From positions 1 to 64,000 of the IMG/VR virus record IMGVR_UViG_3300033273_000460: a DNA stretch of 64,000 bases; one strand, given 5' to 3'. Under the pieces are notes generated by a model. That model was not told the origin of the DNA. It did not search any database and saw nothing but the letters and a program-made list of their open reading frames with translations. Made by a program: the position numbers and the translations under genes. This DNA comes from a virus. Position 1 is the first letter of the stretch, and the number at the start of each line of letters is the position of its first letter. Below, piece by piece: positions 31,233-63,900 of the stretch.

Positions 31233-31694
31233 TTAAGCTGTTACAACTTGGAATCTGCCTGGCTGATTTACATCGCCAATAGCATACGTGCCTGTGTTGA
31301 TTGCAACTGCTGATGTTTGATCATTGACCCACTGCACACGGTCTCCTACTGCTACCTGTGAACCTGTACCTAATGCACCAATTTCAATCCATGCATTTGT
31401 AATACGACTCACATAGTAAGTGCCGCCTGCACTGTCTGTTGCTGTTAACTGGCACTGACCTGCTGAAAGCGAGCCACTTGCTACTGCGGTTAGTGTGCAA
31501 GTTTCTGTACCATCACTTGTTGTGCAACGGAAACGGTGAGTGCCTTTTTGTGTAACAACGCTGGTGTTGTTAGCACTGCCGCCTGTGACGAATGCAATCA
31601 TACGAATTTGTTCGCCTGTGCCTGAATCTGCACCAATCGCACCTGTGTGGAAATTACCATCAACTGTTTTTGCTGTTCTTAGTGGACGTCCCAT
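31233..31694 (-). CDS. Putative virion structural protein (MGRPL N-terminus), possibly head decoration
   Basis: Strong AAGGAG RBS, own late promoter (31782-31789), position just downstream of the capsid gene; function inferred from context only. Confidence 0.5.
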   Translation of the reverse strand: MGRPLRTAKTVDGNFHTGAIGADSGTGEQIRMIAFVTGGSANNTSVVTQKGTHRFRCTTSDGTETCTLTAVASGSLSAGQCQLTATDSAGGTYYVSRITNAWIEIGALGTGSQVAVGDRVQWVNDQTSAVAINTGTYAIGDVNQPGRFQVVTA

Positions 31695-31791
31695 TTGTTT
31701 TCTCCTTTATAGAAGCCCTATCCAAGTTCTACTTGGTACGCGGTGGGTTAGACCGCATAAGCCGTATTTTGCCGGCATAAGTATTTATTCA

Positions 31792-40621: not shown

Positions 40622-41506
40622 ATGGCAATTGAGCAACAGACAATGACTAACAATTTAGACCAACCTGGTGGCAATCCACTGGGCAAATTTTTTAGGACGC
40701 CTGCAATACAATTGAGATTGCCTAGCGGAGGACGCTATTGGCCACCCGGCACACTTGATATGCCACAAACTGGCGAAATTCCAGTGTATTCAATGACTGC
40801 AAGAGATGAAATGATTTTCAACAATCCAGATGCTCTCATGAACGGACAAGCAGTGGTAGATGTGATACAAAGTTGTTGCCCAAATATAAAAAATGCATGG
40901 AGCATGCCCAGTGTTGATCTAGATGCAATACTTATTGCTATTCGTATTGCCAGTTTTGGTGAGAACATGGAGTTTAGGACTACTTGCCCTAGTTGTACTG
41001 AAGAAAATTCATTCGAACTTGATCTAAGACCAGTACTGGACAGTGTAAAGCAAGCACCACCATTTGACCAAGAATATGCTTATCAAGGGCTAACATTTAG
41101 TTTTAGACCACAAGACTACACCACAGTAAACATGGTCAATATTGAAACGTTTGAAAGTCAAAGATTGTTTAGTGTTGTAAATAATAGTGAATTACCCGAC
41201 GAAGAAAAACTAGAACGTGTAAATGAAATATTCAAAAAGATGACTGATTACACTGTGGGTATCATTGCAGGTGCCATTGAAAAAATTATTACACCAGACG
41301 GACAAGAAGTAACAAACAGTCAACACATTGACGAGTTTCTAAAAAATTGCGATCGTAAAACTTTTGATTGGGTACAAAAAAACATACAAGAACTAGGCAA
41401 ACAACAAGGCCTAAATGATGTAAATGTTAAATGTCCGGACTGCAATCATCAATATGAAATTCCATTAACATTTGATAACGCAAATTTTTTCGCATCAAGC
41501 TCTTAA
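40622..41506 (+). CDS. gp26: Baseplate hub / tail assembly chaperone, T4 gp26-like
   Basis: NPL..FFR.P...LPSGG, MTARDE, DLDAILIAIRIASFG, two CxxC motifs (CPSC, CPDC), C-terminal NFF. Confidence 0.7.
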   Translation: MAIEQQTMTNNLDQPGGNPLGKFFRTPAIQLRLPSGGRYWPPGTLDMPQTGEIPVYSMTARDEMIFNNPDALMNGQAVVDVIQSCCPNIKNAWSMPSVDLDAILIAIRIASFGENMEFRTTCPSCTEENSFELDLRPVLDSVKQAPPFDQEYAYQGLTFSFRPQDYTTVNMVNIETFESQRLFSVVNNSELPDEEKLERVNEIFKKMTDYTVGIIAGAIEKIITPDGQEVTNSQHIDEFLKNCDRKTFDWVQKNIQELGKQQGLNDVNVKCPDCNHQYEIPLTFDNANFFASSS

Positions 41507-41532
41507 CACTATCTAACGACCAGATTGTTGAG

Positions 41533-41721
41533 ATGCTGGAACAAATGGACACATCGGTCGCTAAACTTCGCAAAGAACTTCTGACCATGTGTTGGTACAT
41601 GCGAGGAGGATTAACCTATGAGGAAAGTGTTTTCCTTAGCCTAAATGACAGAATAGCCATTGGTGAAATCATTGAGAGCAATCTAGAAACTACCAAGAAG
41701 TCAAGTTTACCATTTTTCTAA
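41533..41721 (+). CDS. gp51-like small chaperone domain; probably also made as a -1 frameshift extension of the upstream ORF
   Basis: WYMRGGLTYEE...LS..DR..I; no obvious RBS; frame open back to the slippery site at 41482-41491. Confidence 0.65.
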   Translation: MLEQMDTSVAKLRKELLTMCWYMRGGLTYEESVFLSLNDRIAIGEIIESNLETTKKSSLPFF

Positions 41722-42140
41722 CAACTGTAACAAGTTGAGCTAACGCTCAACTAAAACTTTCGCTTTCGCTCAGTTTTATTTTTCTAATTTCTTTTAAAAG
41801 CGAAGCTAATTCATGTTTCGTTAGATAGTGGTCATACTTCTCCCGTTGCCGGGAGAAGCACGTCTAATTCATCTTTCGTTGAGTGAGAACGCATAATAGT
41901 TAACGGAAGTCTTACGACCGAGGCGGTTATCCTGTACCTCTTTACTCCTGCTTCATACAGCGGAATCAACACACACCGTAACTATCCAATGTGTGCCAAC
42001 TGCGGTTGCTTTTTCTCAGAGCCGCATCATTTAGCCTAAAGCGTGGCCATACTGTGTCCAAATGCGACAATGTCGGGGTGTCGCGCAACCTTCAAGTATT
42101 TGATAAGGGACTATATAGCCTTAGTTTAGCCTAAATGATT
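41720..42140 (-). ncRNA. Large structured non-coding RNA candidate; family not recognised
   Basis: Longest ORF-free stretch in the window. The minus strand gives about ten helices, a 14-bp stem with six G-U pairs, GCAA/GUAA/GAAA tetraloops and two loop-distal complementarities. Confidence 0.7.
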
Positions 42141-42548
42141 TTGTTCTTTGAGAATGCCTTTGCCGTGTACTCTTACACGGATGTGCCCATTGTAGTATTT
42201 GTCTGATTCTAATACTTTGTAATTGAACTGTTCTCTAGCTTCAATGTAAGATAACTCACTCTTGCTGTAACAATAAAAGAGTATCTCACGTTTGAAGTTG
42301 TCTTTGCCTAGTTGAGCTATATCTTCGTTGAGTTCGTCACTGGATCCATAATAGTCTCTCCAGTCACTTTCAACTTTGGTGCGCCTTCTATTCTTTTTGC
42401 CTTTTAGCGGTGGTTTAGATCTACTAAACTTTGCCAATTTTTTGCCTATGTATTGCCTATCATTGGTTGTGTTTGTTATGATATAAACAAACCCAACAAC
42501 ATCTTCTGGAAGTTCTTCAACTTCATTGCCTTGATATGTCCATGTCAT
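42126..42548 (-). CDS. Stand-alone GIY-YIG nuclease (catalytic domain only, 140 aa)
   Basis: GFVYIITN...YIGKK, YYGSS, FKREIL, conserved Glu (YIEAREQ), YYN; probable start ATG 42548. Confidence 0.85.
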   Translation of the reverse strand: MTWTYQGNEVEELPEDVVGFVYIITNTTNDRQYIGKKLAKFSRSKPPLKGKKNRRRTKVESDWRDYYGSSDELNEDIAQLGKDNFKREILFYCYSKSELSYIEAREQFNYKVLESDKYYNGHIRVRVHGKGILKEQNHLG

Positions 42549-42598
42549 GATATGCAATATAATTTAGCATACTTATCTAACAAGGACAACCTTTTTGA

Positions 42599-44353
42599 TC
42601 ACATCACTTCAATATCTGTGTCGTAGTGTGTAAACCCATTTTCTTTTACAACTTTGAGTATGTTGTTAACACGTCCAGCAAGTTCGTCCTTGTGTGAAAC
42701 AAGCCAAATGCTTTTGCTACGTTCACGAGCCATCTTCTTTAACACTGCAAGACTACTTTCAACACCACTTGCATCCATGCCACTGTCTATAAGTTCATCT
42801 ATGAACAACAGATTAATTGGATGATACAGACTTTCCCACACATCACGGAACGCCCAACTCAAGCTGAGTATAAGCCTGTTGCGTTCACCACGTGACAAGT
42901 TGTCAAAGTCCAAGTCTCTGCCTAGTTCTTGTATTTCAACACTGAGATCATTCTGGAATACCACACTGTGTGGCAATCCTACACTTTCCAAATATGCAGT
43001 AAGACGTCCGTTTAAGAACGCTAGGTTTTGATCTATGATGCGTTTTCGAATAAAACTGTCTTTGTTTGTGAGCAGTTTAAGCAAAAACTCTTGATGCTCT
43101 TTTACCCTAGTAAGTTCGTTAACAGTGTCCCAATTGATTGTTTGTACTGCTTGCTGTTCCATCTCTTCAATTTGTTCAAGGTATGGATCAGTATCACCCA
43201 GTCGTTGTTCCAGTTGATTGGCCAGTGTGTTCAGTGTGGTCTGATGATTGTATGCATCTTCAATTTTGTCATAGAACACTGTGGGTGCTACACCTAGTTC
43301 GCCTACGCCTGCAACTGTTTGTTCATAGTCTTTGCGTTTTGCATCATTGTCTGCAACTGTTTGTTGTGCTTCTGCAAGTTGCTGTTGTTTACTGTCAAGT
43401 ATGGCAGTTTGCTTTTCGTCATGCACATCTTGCCCACACGCATAGCACTTGTGTTCTTGCAACAGCACAATTTCATTTTCTAATTTATCAATTGTGCGTT
43501 TTTGTTTTGTATCATCTTGATCAATGCTGGCAATCCAACGTTGTGCTTCTTGTATTGTGCTTTGCTTTTCGTAAAACTCGTCAAGCAGTCTGTGATTTGT
43601 AAGTTCTGTGTCAATGTCAACATGTGCCATGTCTTCGATGCTTTTGGTCAGCTTACCAACATCTTCGTCACGTTTGGCAGTCCACAGCCGTTGACGTTTT
43701 TTGAGACTGTCAATTTGTTCTTCAATTTTGCTGTTTGCATCTTGCACTGCTTTGATGCGATACTCTTCTTCAGTTATTGCCTCTTTTGTGATGCGTGTTT
43801 GTTCTTTGAGTGTTTCTGCTTTTTCACTGAGCAGTGTTATACCCAACAACTGTTCAATGATAGCACGTTGATCATTGTTGCCTAAACTTAAAAATGGTTG
43901 TGTGTAAGTGTTGAGTGCTACAAGATGCTTGAACATTTCATGTGTCATGCCCAGCATGGTTTCTATAGCGCCTTGCGTTTCTCTGCTGTCGCCTTCTTGT
44001 AGCTCGTCATCACCTACTGCATATTTGAGTATGTTTGGTTTGCGTCCACGTTCAATACGATAGTGTACACCATTGTTTTCAAACTCAACTGTGACCAACA
44101 TACCTTTGCTGTTGGTTTTGTTGATTAGATTGTCGCGCTTGATGTTTGTTAGTGCATTGCCATACAGTGCGTAACTGAGTGCATTGATGATTGTGGTTTT
44201 GCCTGTGCCGTTTCTAGCACCACTGTCATCGCCACCTAAGTCTAAGTTTTCGCCTAACACCAATGTGAGGTCGTTGCGGTTGAAGTCAACTGCTTGTGTA
44301 GTGTTACCCACACTCATAAAGTTTTTTACTGTGAGAGTATTGAGTTTAAACAT
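42599..44353 (-). CDS. gp46: Recombination nuclease ATPase subunit (Rad50/SbcC-like)
   Basis: KNFMSVGN, Walker A NGTGKTT, CYAC zinc hook, LSRGE signature, LFIDE Walker B, VSH. Confidence 0.95.
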   Translation of the reverse strand: MFKLNTLTVKNFMSVGNTTQAVDFNRNDLTLVLGENLDLGGDDSGARNGTGKTTIINALSYALYGNALTNIKRDNLINKTNSKGMLVTVEFENNGVHYRIERGRKPNILKYAVGDDELQEGDSRETQGAIETMLGMTHEMFKHLVALNTYTQPFLSLGNNDQRAIIEQLLGITLLSEKAETLKEQTRITKEAITEEEYRIKAVQDANSKIEEQIDSLKKRQRLWTAKRDEDVGKLTKSIEDMAHVDIDTELTNHRLLDEFYEKQSTIQEAQRWIASIDQDDTKQKRTIDKLENEIVLLQEHKCYACGQDVHDEKQTAILDSKQQQLAEAQQTVADNDAKRKDYEQTVAGVGELGVAPTVFYDKIEDAYNHQTTLNTLANQLEQRLGDTDPYLEQIEEMEQQAVQTINWDTVNELTRVKEHQEFLLKLLTNKDSFIRKRIIDQNLAFLNGRLTAYLESVGLPHSVVFQNDLSVEIQELGRDLDFDNLSRGERNRLILSLSWAFRDVWESLYHPINLLFIDELIDSGMDASGVESSLAVLKKMARERSKSIWLVSHKDELAGRVNNILKVVKENGFTHYDTDIEVM

Positions 44354-57945: not shown

Positions 57946-60900
57946 TGGCATTGCGTAAACATTCACAACTGCTCCCGGGCGTATTTCAAACTTCTCGTAA
58001 TCAAAAGTTTTTAAATGCTACACTGGACCAATTGAACAGTGAACCAAATAATGTTCGCATCAATCAGTACATTGGACGTTCACCAACTAGAAGTTATGTC
58101 AAAGGTGATGGTTATATTACAGAAAGTACTGCTCTTAGGCAAAGCTACCAACTAGAACCAGCAGTTGTATATCGCAACAGTGCTGGTGAGGTAGAAAGTG
58201 TTGATGGTATCATTAATGCTGTTAACAGTATAGCATTTAACAATGGCGATACAAATAATTTACACAACTTGGTAACTCAACAATATTACAACTACGAAGG
58301 TTGGGTTGACAATGACAAATTGATCAACTATGGTGAATACTTTTGGTTGCCTAAAGGACCAGATGTTGTTAATGTAGGCGGCAGTGCCGTTGACCCAGAA
58401 AAAGATTTTACAGTAAACCGTAGTGACACAACCCGTATCACAGAATTATACGACAGCAATCCCTATGATAGTCAACCATTTGCTGAATACTTTGAAGACA
58501 TCAGCACAGCAACAAGTTATTATACATTTAATAATGATGCAGATCAAAACCAAACAATTTATCTAGCTAGAGGTGGTGAGTATACCTTCACTGTTGATCA
58601 ACCAGGATTTCCTTTCTGGATCCAAACTGAAATTGGTATAAGTGGTATTAGCACAAGTCAAAGCAATATCAGCACAAGAGAAGTTGCTGGTGTTGTAAAC
58701 AATGGCGAAGACGATGGTGTAATCACATACAGAGTTCCAACAGTAGATGATCAAAATTATTATGTAAATTTACCTGTAACTGCTAATGTAGACCTAGCAA
58801 CTGATTTAACATGGAAGCAACTGCACAACCAGCCATTGGCAAATATACTTGCCAATGGCGGCATTGACACACTGACCAGTTTTGATGGTAAAACACTAGT
58901 GTTTGCAAATCAAAATCTTAATGAAAGAGAATGGGAAGCTGGTGCACTGTTTGACAGTGTAGGATTTGATGACCCTGAGGGTTTTGACCCTACAACTGTT
59001 ATCAGTATAGCAGATCGTTACAGTGTATACAAAATTAACGTAACTAACATTGCTGGCACAGACTACGTGCTGCTAACCAAACTTAGCGATATACCTCAAT
59101 ACACCAAAGTAAAAATTAAACAAGGTGTTACCTACGGATCACGTGAACTATACAAAAATGTAGATGGATTATTAGAACTTATTCCACCTATCACTGCAGA
59201 CAATAATGTACTATACTACAGAGATGGTGTAAACGAAAACATGTTTGGACGCATTGTATTGGTAGACATTGGCAATGCACAAACTATTAATGTCACCAAT
59301 GACATCATTGGACAAAATGATTATACTGCTCCAAATGGTGTTGTGTTTACAAACGGATTAAAAATTGAATTTGACAGTACTGTGTTACCTGAAAGTTATC
59401 AGAACAACACCTACTACATTGAAGGTGTAGGACAACGCAGTGGTATTTGTTTGGTTCCAGAAGTTGATCTTAGCACACCAGAAACATTCACAAACAGCCT
59501 CAGCGAACCTTTTGATAGCATAGGATTTGATGCAGGTAATTTTGATGGTACAGAGTTTGCTCCAAGTGACCCTGACTACATTGTAATGAACAGGGCATGC
59601 CGTGATAACAATGCTTGGAGTCGTTACAACAGATGGTTCCACAAAAGTGTTATTGAAGCAGCAGCAGCATACAATGATTTCACTGTGACTGTTGATTATA
59701 CTGCAAGAGCAAAACGCCCTATTGTAGAATACCGTGCAGGTCTACAACTGTTTAATCATGGCATTAATGCAAAACAGCCTGTGAGTATTTTTGATGTTAC
59801 ACAAACAGACGCACTCAGCAATGTAGCAGGAACCACAGGATACTATGCAGATGGTATCAACTTAGATCCACAAATGCGTATTGTGTTCAGTGCTGACACT
59901 GATGAAAATGTAAGGAAAACAGTCTACAGAGTTGACTTCATTGACCAAGACGGCGATATTACAACAGATAAAATTATAAACTTGGTACCTGTTGATACCA
60001 TTACAGAAGATGACTGTTTGGTTGCAAAATTAGGCACTACAAATCAAGGTAAAATGTTCTATTTCAAAAATGGTGTATGGAACGAAAGTCAACAAAAGAC
60101 AGAGTTGTTTCAAGATCCATTGTTTGATATACACAACGGAAGTCATGTTAGTTTAAGTGATACCACTGCATATCCTGACAGTTCGTTTGTAGGAACAAAA
60201 CTATTCAGTTATAAACGCAACAACAACGCTGCCAGTGACAGTGTGTTAGGCTTTGGTTTAAGTTATAAAAACTTTAACAACATTGGCGATATTGTTTTTG
60301 ATAACAACTTTATCTCAGACACATTCACATATACAAAACCAAGCACAGGCAAACAAACAAGTATTATTGTTAAAAGTGGACATGCTCATTCTTATGATTA
60401 CAACACAGGTGCTCGCAGACTTGAAAATGGCTGGCGTAGAATCAACGTTGAAAGCAAAGACTTCCAGATTGTAAGATACGAAGTTGTAGATGAGTTTTAC
60501 AGTTTTGAAATTGGATGTCAGCCTTACCAAAACAATACCAGCACAAATTTAAAAGTATACATCAACAGCAAGTTCCTAGAGCCAAGCAAGTATACTGTAC
60601 TAAGTCAAAACAACAAATACTATGTGGTGCTTGATACTGCAGCACAAGTAGATGATGTTGTAGTAATAAAAGTATTCAGCAATGACCTTACTTCGTTAGG
60701 CTATTTTGAAACACCTGTAAACTTAGAAAACAATGCCAACAACACAGATTTCACTGACCTAACACTAGGACAAATGAGAAATCATCACATTGAAATTGGA
60801 GAAAATATTCCAACCTTGTCTGGTAGTATACTTGGTGCTAACAACATGAGAGACATCGATGTTGCTCAGTATGCTGGTAAAATACTACAGCACAGTGCAG

Positions 60901-63900
60901 GTGCAATTATTCCGTTCTATTTGCTTACAAATGAAAAAGCAAACATCATTGATGCTATAAAGTTTAGCAGCACTGAATACACAAGATTCAAAAATAGATT
61001 CATAGACAATCTTGACAAGTTAGATTTAGATCTACTTGATGCAGCTGGCAGTGTTGACAAAATACTAGAGACAATGGTAGGCAGTAAAACCAATGCATTT
61101 CCTTTTTACTACAGCGACATGGTTGGTTGGGGCAATCAAAAAAGCACATACAATTATACACTAGACAACATTCAAGAAAGATTTTATGAGTTTGGCACAC
61201 AGTTTGACCTAAATGATGTTAGTCAACGCAGTGTCCTAGTTTACCTCACAAACAGCAAAAACCAAAAGCAACAACTTGTACACGGTCGTGATTATACCTT
61301 TGACACAGAAGTTGCTGGAATTCATCTTGACACTAATTTAACCATAGCAGTTGGAAATGTGTTAACAATTGTTGAATATACAGACACAGATGGCAGTTTT
61401 GTTCCGCCTACTCCAAGTAAACTTGGACTATGGCCAGCAATTGAACCAAGTGTGTACCTTGAACAAAACTTTGGTTATGAAGATACCGGCACTGGTCCAT
61501 ACAAAGTGTACGGAACACTTGATCCAAACTACACACAACATGGGCAAGGACAATTGGGTTTTGCATACCCTTTGTATACCACTTATGAAGCAGCACAGGC
61601 TGCTGATAGAGCTGCTGGTGGTGATGGCACAGGCATTCATATTCACAAGTTTATAGGTACACCACAACTTTTCTATATGCCTGCCGCAGCAGGTTTGCCA
61701 CAGCATGGAGCACAGGATAACTCCACCATTGATTATTATCCAGGTGTGCGTACAATCATTAGAGGGCATGATGGTTCACGTTACGTTGGTTTTGGCGATG
61801 TACGTGACAGTATCATTTTTGAATACGAAGCTAGAGTATACAACAATATCAAAACTGTTTACAGCAATGAATTGTTTGATTGGCAGGAAGTACTAACTGG
61901 TTATGCTCGCAGTACTCAAGAAGATAGAAAAATTGAAAATGATATACTGCGTAGCAGTTATGGCACCTGGGCAGAAAAGAATCGTATAGACATCACTAAA
62001 AATGATACATTTAGTGTAGCAAATGCATTTACATGGAACTACTCCCAAAGCCAAAATAAAAATACTGGAGATACATGGCCGGGCGGCTGGAGAGGCATAT
62101 TCAATTGGTTGTATGACACCGAAACTCCACACTTAACTCCATGGGAAATGTTAGGACTATCCTCAAAACCAAGTTGGTGGGATTATCGTTATGGTGCAGC
62201 TCCTTATACAAAAGGTAACACTGTGTTGTGGGAAGACCTACGTGATGGCAAGTTATACAGTGATGCAATCAGCAGTGAATACACCACGCTGTCAAGATAC
62301 CAACGTCCAGAGCTGTTAGATTTTATTCCAACAGACGAACAAGGTAATCTTCGTCCTCCTGCAGATTTTGCCTGCAAAGATTTATCTGTTAGCACTGCAA
62401 ATGGCACTTGGCGTTTTGGTGACTATTCACCACAAGAAACTGCTTGGAGAACCAGCAGCGAATGGCCATTCGCTGCACAATTGTTAGGGATACTACGCAA
62501 GCCCGCAAAGTATTGTAGTTTGCTATGGGATACAAATTTATTTGAATACAACAGTGCATTTGATCAAATACTACAGAAAAACAGGACATACAGACCAAAC
62601 CTTGCAGACTACTGCTTGCACGGCGTTGCTGACAGCAACGGCACAATAAGTCGCAGAGAAGGTTATAATCAATTTATTTTCAATCATCTTGTGTACAACA
62701 ACTTCAGTGCCAGTGATGTTGAAACAAAGGTAAGAAATCTAGAACTAAATCTTTGTTATGCTGTTGGTGGTTTTACTGACAAAAACCTACTCAAAGTTGT
62801 AGCAGAAACAGCAACACCAAACACCAGCAACAACACAATTTTTGTTCCAGATGAAAACTACACTATCTTTTTAAGCAAAAGCACTCCGCTAGAGCGTGTG
62901 GTGTACAGTGGTGTGCGTATTGTTCGTGTTGAGAATGGTTATAAGATCACAGGTTACGACAGTGCCAATCCGTTTTTTAAAGTTGTTCCTAGTAAAAAAT
63001 CACAGAACACTAGAACATTCAGTATAGGACCTGACACTGGTTTTAGTGTATATGATGATTATAATCCTTATATTGTAAATCTAGCATATGGTACAGTTTT
63101 GTCAACCAAGCAGCAGGTGGTAGATTTCCTAAACAGTTTACAAAGATACTATGTAAACAAAGGAATTGTGTTTGACAACGACAACGGTGACTTTATTCAA
63201 GCTGCAAAAGAGTTTGTGTTCTGGAGTCAACAAGGATGGGAAACAGGCAGTGTGTTTACTGTTAGTCCTTTGTATGATAGAATTAAAATAAATCGTAATT
63301 TTACAACAATAGATGATCTAAGTCAAACCATAAGTTTACGTGACGTCAATGGCAAACCTATTGCTAAAACAGATTATAAAGTTAGTCGCATAGACAACGA
63401 AACTATAGTTTATGTTAACTCAGAAAACACAGTGTTAGCAAGTGCTGTGATAAATCCTATACAGTATGAACATGTGTTGGTATTAGACAATGAAACTATT
63501 TTTAATGATCTAGTGTATCAACCAAATCTAGGCAACAGACAAGATAGATTAAAATTAATTGGACAAAAGACAGGAGACTGGAATGGTACACTGCACGCAC
63601 CAGGTTATATTGTAAGTGCAGATAGTTTTAATATTTGGTTAGAAAATAAAAGTTACAGCAAAGGGGAATATGTAAGTTTCCGCAACAAAGAATATGTAGC
63701 CAACCAAGATCATTCAGGAACATCAACTTTTGATTATGACAACTGGGATTTACTACCTAATTATAAATCAGGTTTGTTAAAAAATATTGCACATCGCAGT
63801 TCACAATTTGAAAACTTTTACAACATTGACATACTCAATATTGAAAATGATGTTGATTTAGCAGGCAAAGGACTTATTGGTTTCCGTAGTAGAGAATGGT

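What the first reader, a model, noticed from the sequence alone, without database searches (positions are those of the whole stretch)
41720..42548. Ornate ~420-nt RNA joined to the 3' end of a catalytic-domain-only GIY-YIG nuclease: candidate nuclease-RNA (possibly RNA-guided) system
Seen: this is the longest ORF-free stretch in a tightly packed window, and the minus strand (same strand as the nuclease) folds extensively. Helices: 42139-42125 pairs with 42040-42026 (14 of 15 bp) and buries the nuclease stop codon; GCGACA/UGUCGC; UGCGG/CCGCA; a 14-bp stem at 42000-41965 with six G-U pairs, which would be A-C mismatches on the plus strand; UCC-GCU/AGC-GGA; GAGGU/GCCUC; GGUC-GUAA-GACU; an 11-bp stem with a GCAA loop (41860-41835). 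Two hairpin loops match adjacent downstream segments: AUAGUUA (41985-41979) with UAACUAU (41902-41896), and UGAGAA (42018-42013) with UUCUCA (41889-41884), giving two possible pseudoknots. Known: GIY-YIG homing endonucleases such as I-TevI and the Seg proteins need an appended DNA-binding region, which this 140-aa protein lacks; TnpB and IscB/HEARO nucleases use an adjacent or ORF-overlapping structured RNA. Inference: the RNA may scaffold or target the nuclease, or be an independent phage ncRNA. I do not recognise the family.
Basis: partly seen in the sequence, partly recalled or inferred. Interest (0 to 1): 0.92.

Follow-up and report, generated by a model that had tools for sequence, protein, structure and literature searches.

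The report
Twin-box phage RNA beside nuclease gene
The gene-free stretch behind a small DNA-cutting enzyme gene of this uncultured giant T4-like phage is a real gene for a large, knotted RNA shared by at least 110 distinct related aquatic phage sequences; it is very probably not the enzyme's guide, and its job is unknown.

Summary
Window 41734-42114 (minus strand) encodes a conserved, multiply pseudoknotted RNA of about 320-380 nt. It folds far better than shuffles, and 56 of 79 modelled pairs show compensatory changes. With a covariance model over 88 distinct homologues, 89.6% of cells pair, against 64% when shuffled.

The RNA-guided-nuclease reading is not supported.
- Of 92 independent RNA loci, the upstream neighbour is this GIY-YIG gene in 64 (5 of them inverted), a PD-(D/E)XK gene in 17, an endonuclease VII gene in 1, and none of these in 10, some in non-T4 contexts.
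- The 143-aa GIY-YIG family also occurs without the RNA, in Melnitz, C48C1 and S-SRM01.
- The three nuclease families exclude one another in five large contigs. The GIY-YIG protein therefore looks like a swappable recombination nuclease.

No Rfam family matches the window. In sister RNAs, however, the 5' domain is Rfam Polynucleobacter-1 (RF01718).

One oddity is unexplained: an 8-17 nt 'twin box' occurs twice, unpaired, on either side of a conserved hairpin, and changes in step between phages.

Function is unknown. My best guess is an independent RNA that acts through the twin boxes. This scan has found the same family several times on other DNA, with the same reading.

The parts
42126..42557 (-). 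Stand-alone 143-aa GIY-YIG nuclease gene (neighbour, not shown to be part of the RNA system)
   Evidence: Pfam PF19835 SegE_GIY-YIG, E 6e-37, residues 6-126. phrog_447 matches end to end, 8-145 of 148. A promoter-like site lies at 42583-42556. It is the only copy in the 107-kb contig.
42115..42133 (-). Leader with two AGGCU boxes 11 nt apart; the first overlaps the GIY-YIG stop codon
   Evidence: AGGC[AU] is about 12-fold enriched in the 60-nt leaders of 88 homologues (89 found, 7.7 expected). It is strand-specific, and spacings cluster at 9-11 and 19-21 nt.
42056..42114 (-). 5' domain: closing helix GUCC (42111-08) with GGAC (42059-56), and hairpin GCGACA (42084-79) with UGUCGC (42069-64)
   Evidence: Hairpin stems covary within this subtype; judged by eye. 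The domain is modular: sister RNAs carry Rfam RF01718 here.
42032..42049 (-). Hairpin H1 (GGCC/GGCU)
   Evidence: A hairpin is conserved at this position in the homologues. It is poorly aligned by MAFFT (46% paired), so support is moderate.
42001..42026 (-). P2 stem (42026-22 with 42005-01) closing the near-invariant loop CUCUGAGAAAAAGCAA
   Evidence: 100% of cells paired, with GC/UA/AU/CG variants, in 88 sequences. The loop was also conserved in the set fetched through the protein.
41965..42000 (-). H3: 14-bp hairpin with six G-U pairs; its loop 41986-41979 is the 5' strand of pseudoknot PK-A
   Evidence: Every homologue forms a long hairpin here with a different sequence. All 8 outer pairs show compensatory changes. 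The G-U pairs mark the minus strand as the functional one.
41920..41961 (-). Core pseudoknot: P4 (41961-57 with 41930-26) crossing P5 (41940-36 with 41924-20); P6 5' strand GGAGU at 41948-44
   Evidence: P4 is 98.1% paired with up to 6 pair types; P5 is 91.4% paired. P6 is 64% paired on the MAFFT alignment, with 3 compensatory pairs.
41895..41919 (-). Small hairpin GGUC-GUAA-GACU, P6 3' strand (41910-06), and PK-A 3' strand (41902-41895)
   Evidence: PK-A: the loop and the downstream strand compensate in more than 20 different sequence versions. Homologues have a variable hairpin at the same place.
41864..41880 (-). Twin box, copy X1 (17 nt), preceded by the conserved ACUC
   Evidence: It differs from X2 at 1 of 17 positions. 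Across 59 RNAs, within-RNA identity over 8 nt is 0.82 against 0.51 between RNAs, with 0 of 5000 permutations as high.
41837..41858 (-). H7: 9-bp G+C-rich hairpin with GCAA loop, followed by the conserved UAUGAC
   Evidence: 92.7% paired, 7 of 9 pairs with compensatory changes. Loops are GCAA, GAAA or GAGA in homologues.
41806..41822 (-). Twin box, copy X2 (17 nt), preceded by the conserved AUCU
   Evidence: As for X1. No intramolecular partner was found. There is no conserved ORF and no third copy in the 107-kb contig.
41796..41806 (-). H8: short GC-UUC-GC hairpin plus UUUU; possible 3' end of the RNA
   Evidence: In L010 the homologous hairpin plus U7 scores as an intrinsic terminator. In the window it is weak and no terminator is called.
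41734..41777 (-). T1 (AAAACU/AGUUUU around GA-GC-GAAA-GC-GA) and T2 (GUUGAGC-GUUA-GCUCAAC) hairpins
   Evidence: 76-98% and 94% paired, with compensatory changes. They show no strand-specific G-U signal. They may be a two-way terminator shared with the convergent baseplate genes; that is inference.

Best explanation
The stretch is a stand-alone gene for a large non-coding RNA: about 320 nt from 42114 to about 41796, or about 380 nt with the two terminal hairpins.

Shown:
- The minus-strand RNA folds into a variable 5' domain, a stem (P2) that presents a near-invariant 16-nt loop, a long variable hairpin (H3) whose loop pairs downstream (PK-A), and a P4/P5 pseudoknot.
- It occurs with three unrelated nuclease genes, or with none, beside it.

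Inferred:
- In the window it is probably transcribed by read-through from the GIY-YIG/gp46 unit. In other phages sigma-70-like promoter hexamers, read by eye, lie upstream of the RNA.
- The folded core holds out two identical, unpaired 8-17-nt 'twin boxes' on either side of hairpin H7. The RNA most likely works through these boxes, by pairing with or being read by a lineage-specific partner. It does not work through the neighbouring nuclease.
- The GIY-YIG protein is most likely the phage's small structure-specific (junction or branch-cutting) recombination nuclease. It sits in a slot after gp46 where relatives carry a PD-(D/E)XK or an endonuclease VII enzyme.
For: Real RNA:
- z -5.74 on the minus strand.
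- 75.3% of cells pair, against 61.3% shuffled and 38-48% slid; 56 of 79 pairs are compensatory.
- 89.6% against 64.1%, covariation score 0.68 against 0.20, over 88 distinct sequences.
- PK-A compensates in more than 20 versions.

Independent gene:
- Neighbour statistics over 92 loci, including non-T4 contexts.
- Sigma-70-like hexamers upstream of the RNA in divergent loci such as L201, L142 and L021, read by eye.
- A terminator after X2 in L010.
- The GIY-YIG family occurs without the RNA core in three complete cultured phage genomes.

Swappable nuclease:
- PF24608/phrog_244 and endonuclease VII/phrog_423 sit at the same slot.
- Only one of the three families is present in each of 5 contigs of 107-302 kb.
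- E. coli phage A4 has endonuclease VII there, followed by a 900-nt gap.

Twin boxes. They are unpaired and non-coding.

Phage-only distribution: only 3 true matches in 185,579 species genomes, all on short phage-like MAG contigs.
Against: - No function was tested.
- 88% of loci do have a small nuclease gene directly upstream.
- In L089 the nuclease gene and the RNA appear inverted together, so some functional tie cannot be excluded.
- Transcript ends are unknown. RNA-library contigs cover the RNA and the flanking genes at similar low depth.
- No partner for the twin boxes was found in the 107-kb contig. The contig is only about 31% of the genome by CheckV.
- The 'resolvase' role of the GIY-YIG protein rests only on position and mutual exclusion.
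Confidence: 0.7

Rival explanations
1. Nuclease-RNA ribonucleoprotein. The RNA scaffolds, regulates or guides whichever small nuclease is encoded just upstream, and the twin boxes are the guide-like part.
For: 82 of 92 loci have a small nuclease gene within 1.5 kb upstream. In L089 the GIY-YIG gene and the RNA appear inverted as one block.
Against: Three unrelated folds (GIY-YIG, PD-(D/E)XK, endonuclease VII) would all have to use the same RNA. Ten loci have none, some in non-T4 contexts. Five have the gene on the opposite strand. The GIY-YIG family is present in Melnitz, C48C1 and S-SRM01 without the RNA core. No target for the boxes lies in the contig. There is no Rfam HEARO or omega-RNA-like match.
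Confidence: 0.08
2. Replication or recombination start element. The RNA is an origin transcript or primer (R-loop) or part of an origin, and the phased AGGCW boxes and twin boxes are DNA-level repeats for an initiator.
For: It lies inside the gp47-gp46-resolvase module. AGGCW boxes are 12-fold enriched in the leader, at spacings near 10.5 and 21 nt. The twin boxes are direct repeats that change in step, as iterons do. An A/T-rich tract follows H8 (41772-41800). Some loci have promoter-like hexamers upstream, by eye.
Against: Compensatory changes and G-U pairs show selection on the folded RNA, not only on the DNA. No initiator gene was identified. By background knowledge, known T4 origin transcripts are not ornate. 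No replication data exist. The GC-skew test is uninformative here because transcription converges at this point.
Confidence: 0.12
3. Cis-acting 3' element of the gp46-nuclease operon: a terminator, or a shield against exonucleases.
For: In the window no promoter is called between the GIY-YIG gene and the RNA. The RNA ends at a point where transcription converges, and it carries terminal hairpins T1 and T2.
Against: About 320 nt with three crossing helices is far more than a terminator needs. Promoter-like hexamers lie upstream where the nuclease gene is inverted. The RNA also occurs behind unrelated genes. A near-invariant loop and the twin boxes have no role in this model.
Confidence: 0.05

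Closest known systems
Polynucleobacter-1 RNA motif (Rfam RF01718; Weinberg et al. 2010, PMC2864571)
   Same: In sister RNAs L140, L083 and L127 the 141-nt motif (91.5, 66.5 and 38.7 bits; threshold 37) lies directly upstream of the same core that my model R1 finds. RF01718 is therefore the 5' domain of one branch of this family. The paper lists it from Burkholderiales and fresh water or estuary samples.
   Different: The window's 5' domain is shorter and gives no RF01718 match even at E 10. The core, PK-A, the twin boxes and the 3' hairpins (about 300 nt) are not part of the Rfam model.
GOLLD (RF01998) and ROOL (RF03087), large ornate RNAs often carried by phages
   Same: Large, intricately folded phage-borne RNAs with no known function and no obligate protein partner. 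This is a comparison of kind only, from background knowledge.
   Different: There is no sequence or structure match. This RNA is smaller. I saw no link to tRNA genes (0 tRNAs). The twin boxes have no counterpart that I know of.
Omega-RNA/HEARO of IscB and TnpB (RNA-guided nucleases)
   Same: A structured RNA next to, and often co-oriented with, a small nuclease gene, and a variable single-stranded segment.
   Different: Linkage is not obligate and the orientation is not fixed. The nuclease fold changes between relatives. No RuvC or HNH effector is present, there are no transposon ends, and there is no Rfam match.
T4 gp49 endonuclease VII and Hjc/RusA-type resolvases (for the neighbouring protein)
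   Same: The slot after gp46 holds an endonuclease VII gene in E. coli phage A4 and in L111, and a PD-(D/E)XK protein that PHROGs annotates as 'RusA-like Holliday junction resolvase' in 17 loci. The families exclude each other.
   Different: The window's protein has a GIY-YIG fold (PF19835). No junction-cutting activity has been shown for this family. PHROGs mislabels it 'NAD synthetase'.
Free-standing GIY-YIG homing endonucleases (SegE, I-TevI)
   Same: The catalytic domain matches the SegE-type profile. It is an intergenic, optional gene next to conserved genes.
   Different: There is no DNA-binding extension: 143 aa, and the family profile is 148 aa long. It is a single-copy gene that alternates with resolvase-type enzymes rather than with an empty site.

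Membership tests
Uncatalogued 'twin-box' phage RNA family (defined here by model R1 and the alignments) | Core: P2 with the GCUCUGNGAAAMAG...CAAC loop, the H3 hairpin, the P4 helix and the sequence-conserved P5 region | tested here: met
   The window scores 92.7 bits, E 2.6e-22, over all 121 model positions. 91 matches in 100 loci. The window was one of the 35 seed sequences, so its own score is partly by construction.
Uncatalogued 'twin-box' phage RNA family (defined here by model R1 and the alignments) | H3 loop pairs with a downstream strand (PK-A), and two matching boxes flank hairpin H7 | tested here: met
   PK-A is 8 bp in the window. X1 and X2 match at 16 of 17 positions, 58 nt apart.
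Polynucleobacter-1 RNA (Rfam RF01718) | Covariance-model score at or above the gathering threshold (37 bits) | tested here: not met
   No match in 41400-42700 even at E 10. It is met only in sister RNAs L140, L083 and L127.
RNA-guided nuclease systems (IscB/TnpB omega-RNA, HEARO) | Obligate, oriented linkage of the RNA to one nuclease family | tested here: not met
   59 same strand, 5 opposite, 17 PD-(D/E)XK, 1 endonuclease VII, 10 none.
RNA-guided nuclease systems (IscB/TnpB omega-RNA, HEARO) | The RNA binds the nuclease and directs cleavage | not testable with these tools
   This needs pull-down and cleavage assays.
tmRNA, including the two-piece form reported in Melnitz-like phages (PMC9004378) | tRNA-like domain and tag reading frame recognised by ARAGORN or Rfam | tested here: not met
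   ARAGORN finds 0 genes in the window and in 60 homologous loci. No Rfam tmRNA match in the window region or in 11 small homologous loci. No conserved ORF.
Group I intron with a homing endonuclease gene | Interrupts a host gene; matches the intron model | tested here: not met
   gp46 is complete: 99% of it aligns to homologues, and it ends upstream. There is no downstream exon on the minus strand. No Rfam match.
GOLLD / ROOL | Match to the Rfam model | tested here: not met
   No match at E 10 (window region) or E 5 (11 homologous loci).
GIY-YIG homing endonuclease (SegE/I-TevI type), for the neighbouring protein | GIY-YIG catalytic domain | tested here: met
   PF19835, E 6e-37, residues 6-126.
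GIY-YIG homing endonuclease (SegE/I-TevI type), for the neighbouring protein | Linker plus a sequence-specific DNA-binding domain | tested here: not met
   143 aa in all. phrog_447 is a 148-position profile matched end to end. Relatives are 143-164 aa.

The most novel reading that the evidence does not exclude
The twin boxes are a programmable element of a new kind of phage RNA. Two identical, freely drifting single-stranded words are held by a rigid pseudoknotted scaffold. They act either as a two-handed guide that brings together two copies of a complementary DNA or RNA site, for example to start recombination-dependent replication beside the gp46/47-resolvase module, or as the two ends of a template for repeated copying.
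Probability: 0.1. Interest if true: 0.9.

Novelty: new variant of a known kind. Interest (0 to 1): 0.6.

Why it matters
Large, ornately folded RNAs without a known job are rare, and they have repeatedly led to new biology. This one is common in uncultured giant T4-like phages of marine, salt-marsh and fresh waters.

It has at least three crossing helices. It also carries a pair of words that evolve in step, a signature for which I found no ready explanation.

The results also show that the 141-nt Rfam motif Polynucleobacter-1 is only the front part of a much larger RNA. They correct a tempting but unsupported 'RNA-guided GIY-YIG' idea. They suggest instead that a short GIY-YIG family, mislabelled 'NAD synthetase' in phage annotations, stands in for endonuclease VII-type resolvases.

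Weak matches in E. coli phage A4 hint at a cultured model in which the RNA could be tested.

Tried and rejected
- **Rfam:** the whole window at gathering thresholds, the region at E 10, and 11 small homologous loci at E 5 gave nothing relevant.
- **tmRNA idea,** prompted by the Melnitz paper: ARAGORN found none in the window or in 60 loci, and there is no conserved ORF from the box AUGs.
- **Intramolecular partner for the twin boxes:** RNAduplex did no better than shuffled boxes, and no complementary column run was found.
- **Third copy or target of the boxes** in the 107-kb contig: none with 3 or fewer mismatches in 17.
- **blastn of the RNA, and of its most conserved 37-46 nt,** against 50,697 deposited phage genomes: only chance hits inside genes.
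- **Sequence HMM on E. coli phage A4:** nothing.
- **Sequencing runs:** six salt-marsh metatranscriptome runs hold the stretch, but the four laid are Logan contigs that cover the RNA and the flanking genes at similar low depth. Contig breaks at 42053/42074 coincide with variant sites. This gives no evidence on transcript ends or level.
- **Supplement of Fremin et al. 2023:** not held, so I could not check whether this RNA is among their 10,000 candidates.
- **PDB sequence search with the GIY-YIG protein:** no hit.
- **One literature search** was too broad to be useful.
- **Not attempted:** a full-length covariance model, because of the size limit, and a structure prediction of the nuclease, because it is tangential.

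Full report
**What is there.** On the minus strand the window reads, in order: gp46/SbcC-like ATPase (42599-44353), a 143-aa GIY-YIG protein (42126-42557), and then about 400 nt without a credible ORF. On the plus strand a 62-aa ORF and a T4-type baseplate hub protein converge on this point. The contig is a 107,770-nt IMG/VR fragment, about 31% of a genome by CheckV, so this is a giant phage. The nearest gp46 homologues are under 50% identical and belong to jumbo phages.

**Is the fold more than chance?** The minus strand of 41720-42140 folds at -132.9 kcal/mol, z -5.74. The plus strand gives z -3.1. What settles it is that homologues exist.
- Loci fetched through the GIY-YIG protein already carried the RNA.
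That gave 110 distinct RNA cores.
- On a 20-sequence MAFFT alignment, my 79-pair model with crossing helices has 75.3% of cells paired. Shuffled controls give 61.3% (0 of 500 as high) and slid controls 38-48%. 56 pairs carry compensatory changes.
- A covariance model of the core (R1) found 91 matches. On 88 distinct sequences P2 is 100% paired, P4 98.1%, P5 91.4% and outer H3 78%. The covariation score is 0.68 against 0.20.
- P4 and P5 cross, so the core is a true pseudoknot.
- The H3 loop pairs with a strand about 80 nt downstream in more than 20 different compensating versions.
- The stretch is not the longest ORF-free one in the window.

**Is it tied to the nuclease?** I used the RNA-anchored set, which is blind to neighbours. 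Of the 92 loci with at least 1.4 kb of upstream flank:

| Upstream neighbour within 1.5 kb | Loci |
|---|---|
| GIY-YIG gene, same strand | 59 |
| GIY-YIG gene, opposite strand | 5 |
| PD-(D/E)XK gene (PF24608; phrog_244 'RusA-like Holliday junction resolvase') | 17 |
| Neither | 11 |

One of the 11 (L111) has an endonuclease VII gene (phrog_423, E 2e-20). Several others lie in quite different gene neighbourhoods without gp46.

- Where the nuclease gene is inverted, sigma-70-like hexamers (for example TTGACC-17-TATAAT in L201) lie upstream of the RNA on its own strand; I read these by eye and the consensus scan of L010 did not call one.
- In L010 a terminator follows the second box.
- Conversely, the short GIY-YIG family is a well-populated phage family of its own length (phrog_447, 148 positions). 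It occurs in Melnitz, C48C1 and S-SRM01, whose complete genomes give no R1 match.
- In five contigs of 107-302 kb only one of the three nuclease families is present: GIY-YIG in three, PD-(D/E)XK in one, endonuclease VII-like in one.
- E. coli phage A4 shows the same gene order, gp47, gp46, endonuclease VII, a 900-nt gap, then the baseplate hub.

I read this as non-orthologous replacement of a small recombination (junction-resolving) nuclease after gp46. It is not a homing endonuclease or an RNA-guided enzyme. This reading is an inference from position and mutual exclusion.

**What family is it?** Nothing in Rfam 15 matches the window. A lead from earlier notes of this scan proved right when I tested it. 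In sister RNAs L140, L083 and L127, Polynucleobacter-1 (RF01718) matches above threshold immediately upstream of the R1 core. The catalogued 141-nt motif is therefore one of at least three alternative 5' domains of this larger RNA.

The RNA appears confined to phage sequences.
- Among one genome for each of 185,579 prokaryote species, the motif scan plus an HMM check left three true hits, all on short MAG contigs; two of the three also carry GIY-YIG or baseplate homologues.
- None was found among 50,697 deposited phage genomes by blastn.
- With R1, phage A4 gives two weak matches in ORF-free gaps. One is syntenic (8.4 bits with filters off). The other lies beside a sigma-factor gene (19.6 bits). 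Both keep the CCG-P4...P4'-CCGC arrangement with compensating P4 sequences (GUUG/CAAC and GUCA/UGAC).
- I rate the A4 matches as suggestive, not proven.

**The twin boxes.** After the conserved ACUC comes box X1 (41880-41864). After hairpin H7 and the conserved UAUGAC...AUCU comes box X2 (41822-41806). They match at 16 of 17 positions.
- I defined both boxes only by their flanking anchors in 59 RNAs. The two boxes of one RNA are 82% identical over 8 nt. Boxes of different RNAs are 51% identical. None of 5000 permutations reached the observed value.
- About 15 clearly different words occur, each matched in both copies. Spacing is 50-67 nt and is not a multiple of three.
- The boxes have no internal pairing partner, do not start a conserved ORF, and have no third copy or complement in the contig.
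- Relatedness among sequences inflates the permutation test. The number of distinct matched words is the stronger argument.

**Mechanism.** Shown: a folded, conserved minus-strand RNA that does not depend on any one neighbour. Inferred:
- It acts through the displayed boxes on a lineage-specific partner.
- The nuclease is a resolvase-type enzyme.

Rivals are a nuclease-RNA particle (0.08), an origin or primer element (0.12) and a cis 3' element (0.05). The origin idea is helped by phased AGGCW boxes in the leader and by the A/T-rich tract after H8.

Expression could not be judged. Metatranscriptome contigs cover the RNA and its neighbouring genes alike.

**Earlier notes.** This scan has reported the same family on other DNA many times, with the same reading. 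I re-tested the Polynucleobacter-1, swappable-nuclease and E. coli-phage leads. One note said the RNA 'always travels with the nuclease as one cassette'; my counts contradict it.

**Verdict.** This is a real and interesting orphan RNA that is partly catalogued. The RNA-guided-nuclease reading is not supported.

Noticed in passing
window 31692-31777 (-): freshwater-2 RNA (Rfam RF02980), 66.4 bits against a threshold of 49.9. It ends in a ribosome-binding site and an AUG. It was the only gathering-level Rfam match in the window.
   Followed up: no
window 42115-42133 (-), and the 60-nt leaders of 88 homologues: AGGC[AU] boxes are about 12-fold enriched upstream of the RNA (89 found, 7.7 expected). 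They are strand-specific, and spacings cluster near 10 and 21 nt. L125 has three 22-nt tandem units. I cannot tell whether this is a DNA-level or an RNA-level signal.
   Followed up: partly
window 57946-61427: About 3.5 kb without any ORF of 100 aa or more, including four stretches of 469-640 nt without an ORF of 60 aa or more. All four are longer than the finding's gap. No tRNA or Rfam match lies there.
   Followed up: no
L245 7057-7169 (+), and ON286972.1 321243-321343 (+) (Escherichia phage A4): Two ORF-free gaps give weak matches to the RNA core model (8.4 and 19.6 bits) with compensating P4 helices. One is syntenic (gp46, endonuclease VII, gap, baseplate hub). The other lies beside a sigma-70-family gene. 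They may be distant sister RNAs in a cultured E. coli jumbo phage.
   Followed up: partly
L106 9115-9300 (+): A 61-aa histone H1-like Hc1 protein (PF07432, E 1.9e-13) is encoded between gp46 and the PD-(D/E)XK nuclease in a 302-kb contig.
   Followed up: no
window 42126-42557 (-) and relatives: The short GIY-YIG family (phrog_447) is annotated 'NAD synthetase' in PHROGs and in many cyanophage records. This looks like a propagated mislabel.
   Followed up: partly
window 42053-42075: RNA-library contigs of two runs (X16, X18) end at 42053 and resume at 42074/42075, near the junction between the 5' domain and the core. A variant at 42063 in another run makes an assembly break the likelier cause.
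   Followed up: no
L089 3584-4573: Here the GIY-YIG gene and the RNA lie in reverse order and orientation relative to gp46 and the baseplate genes, as if the pair had been inverted as one block.
   Followed up: no
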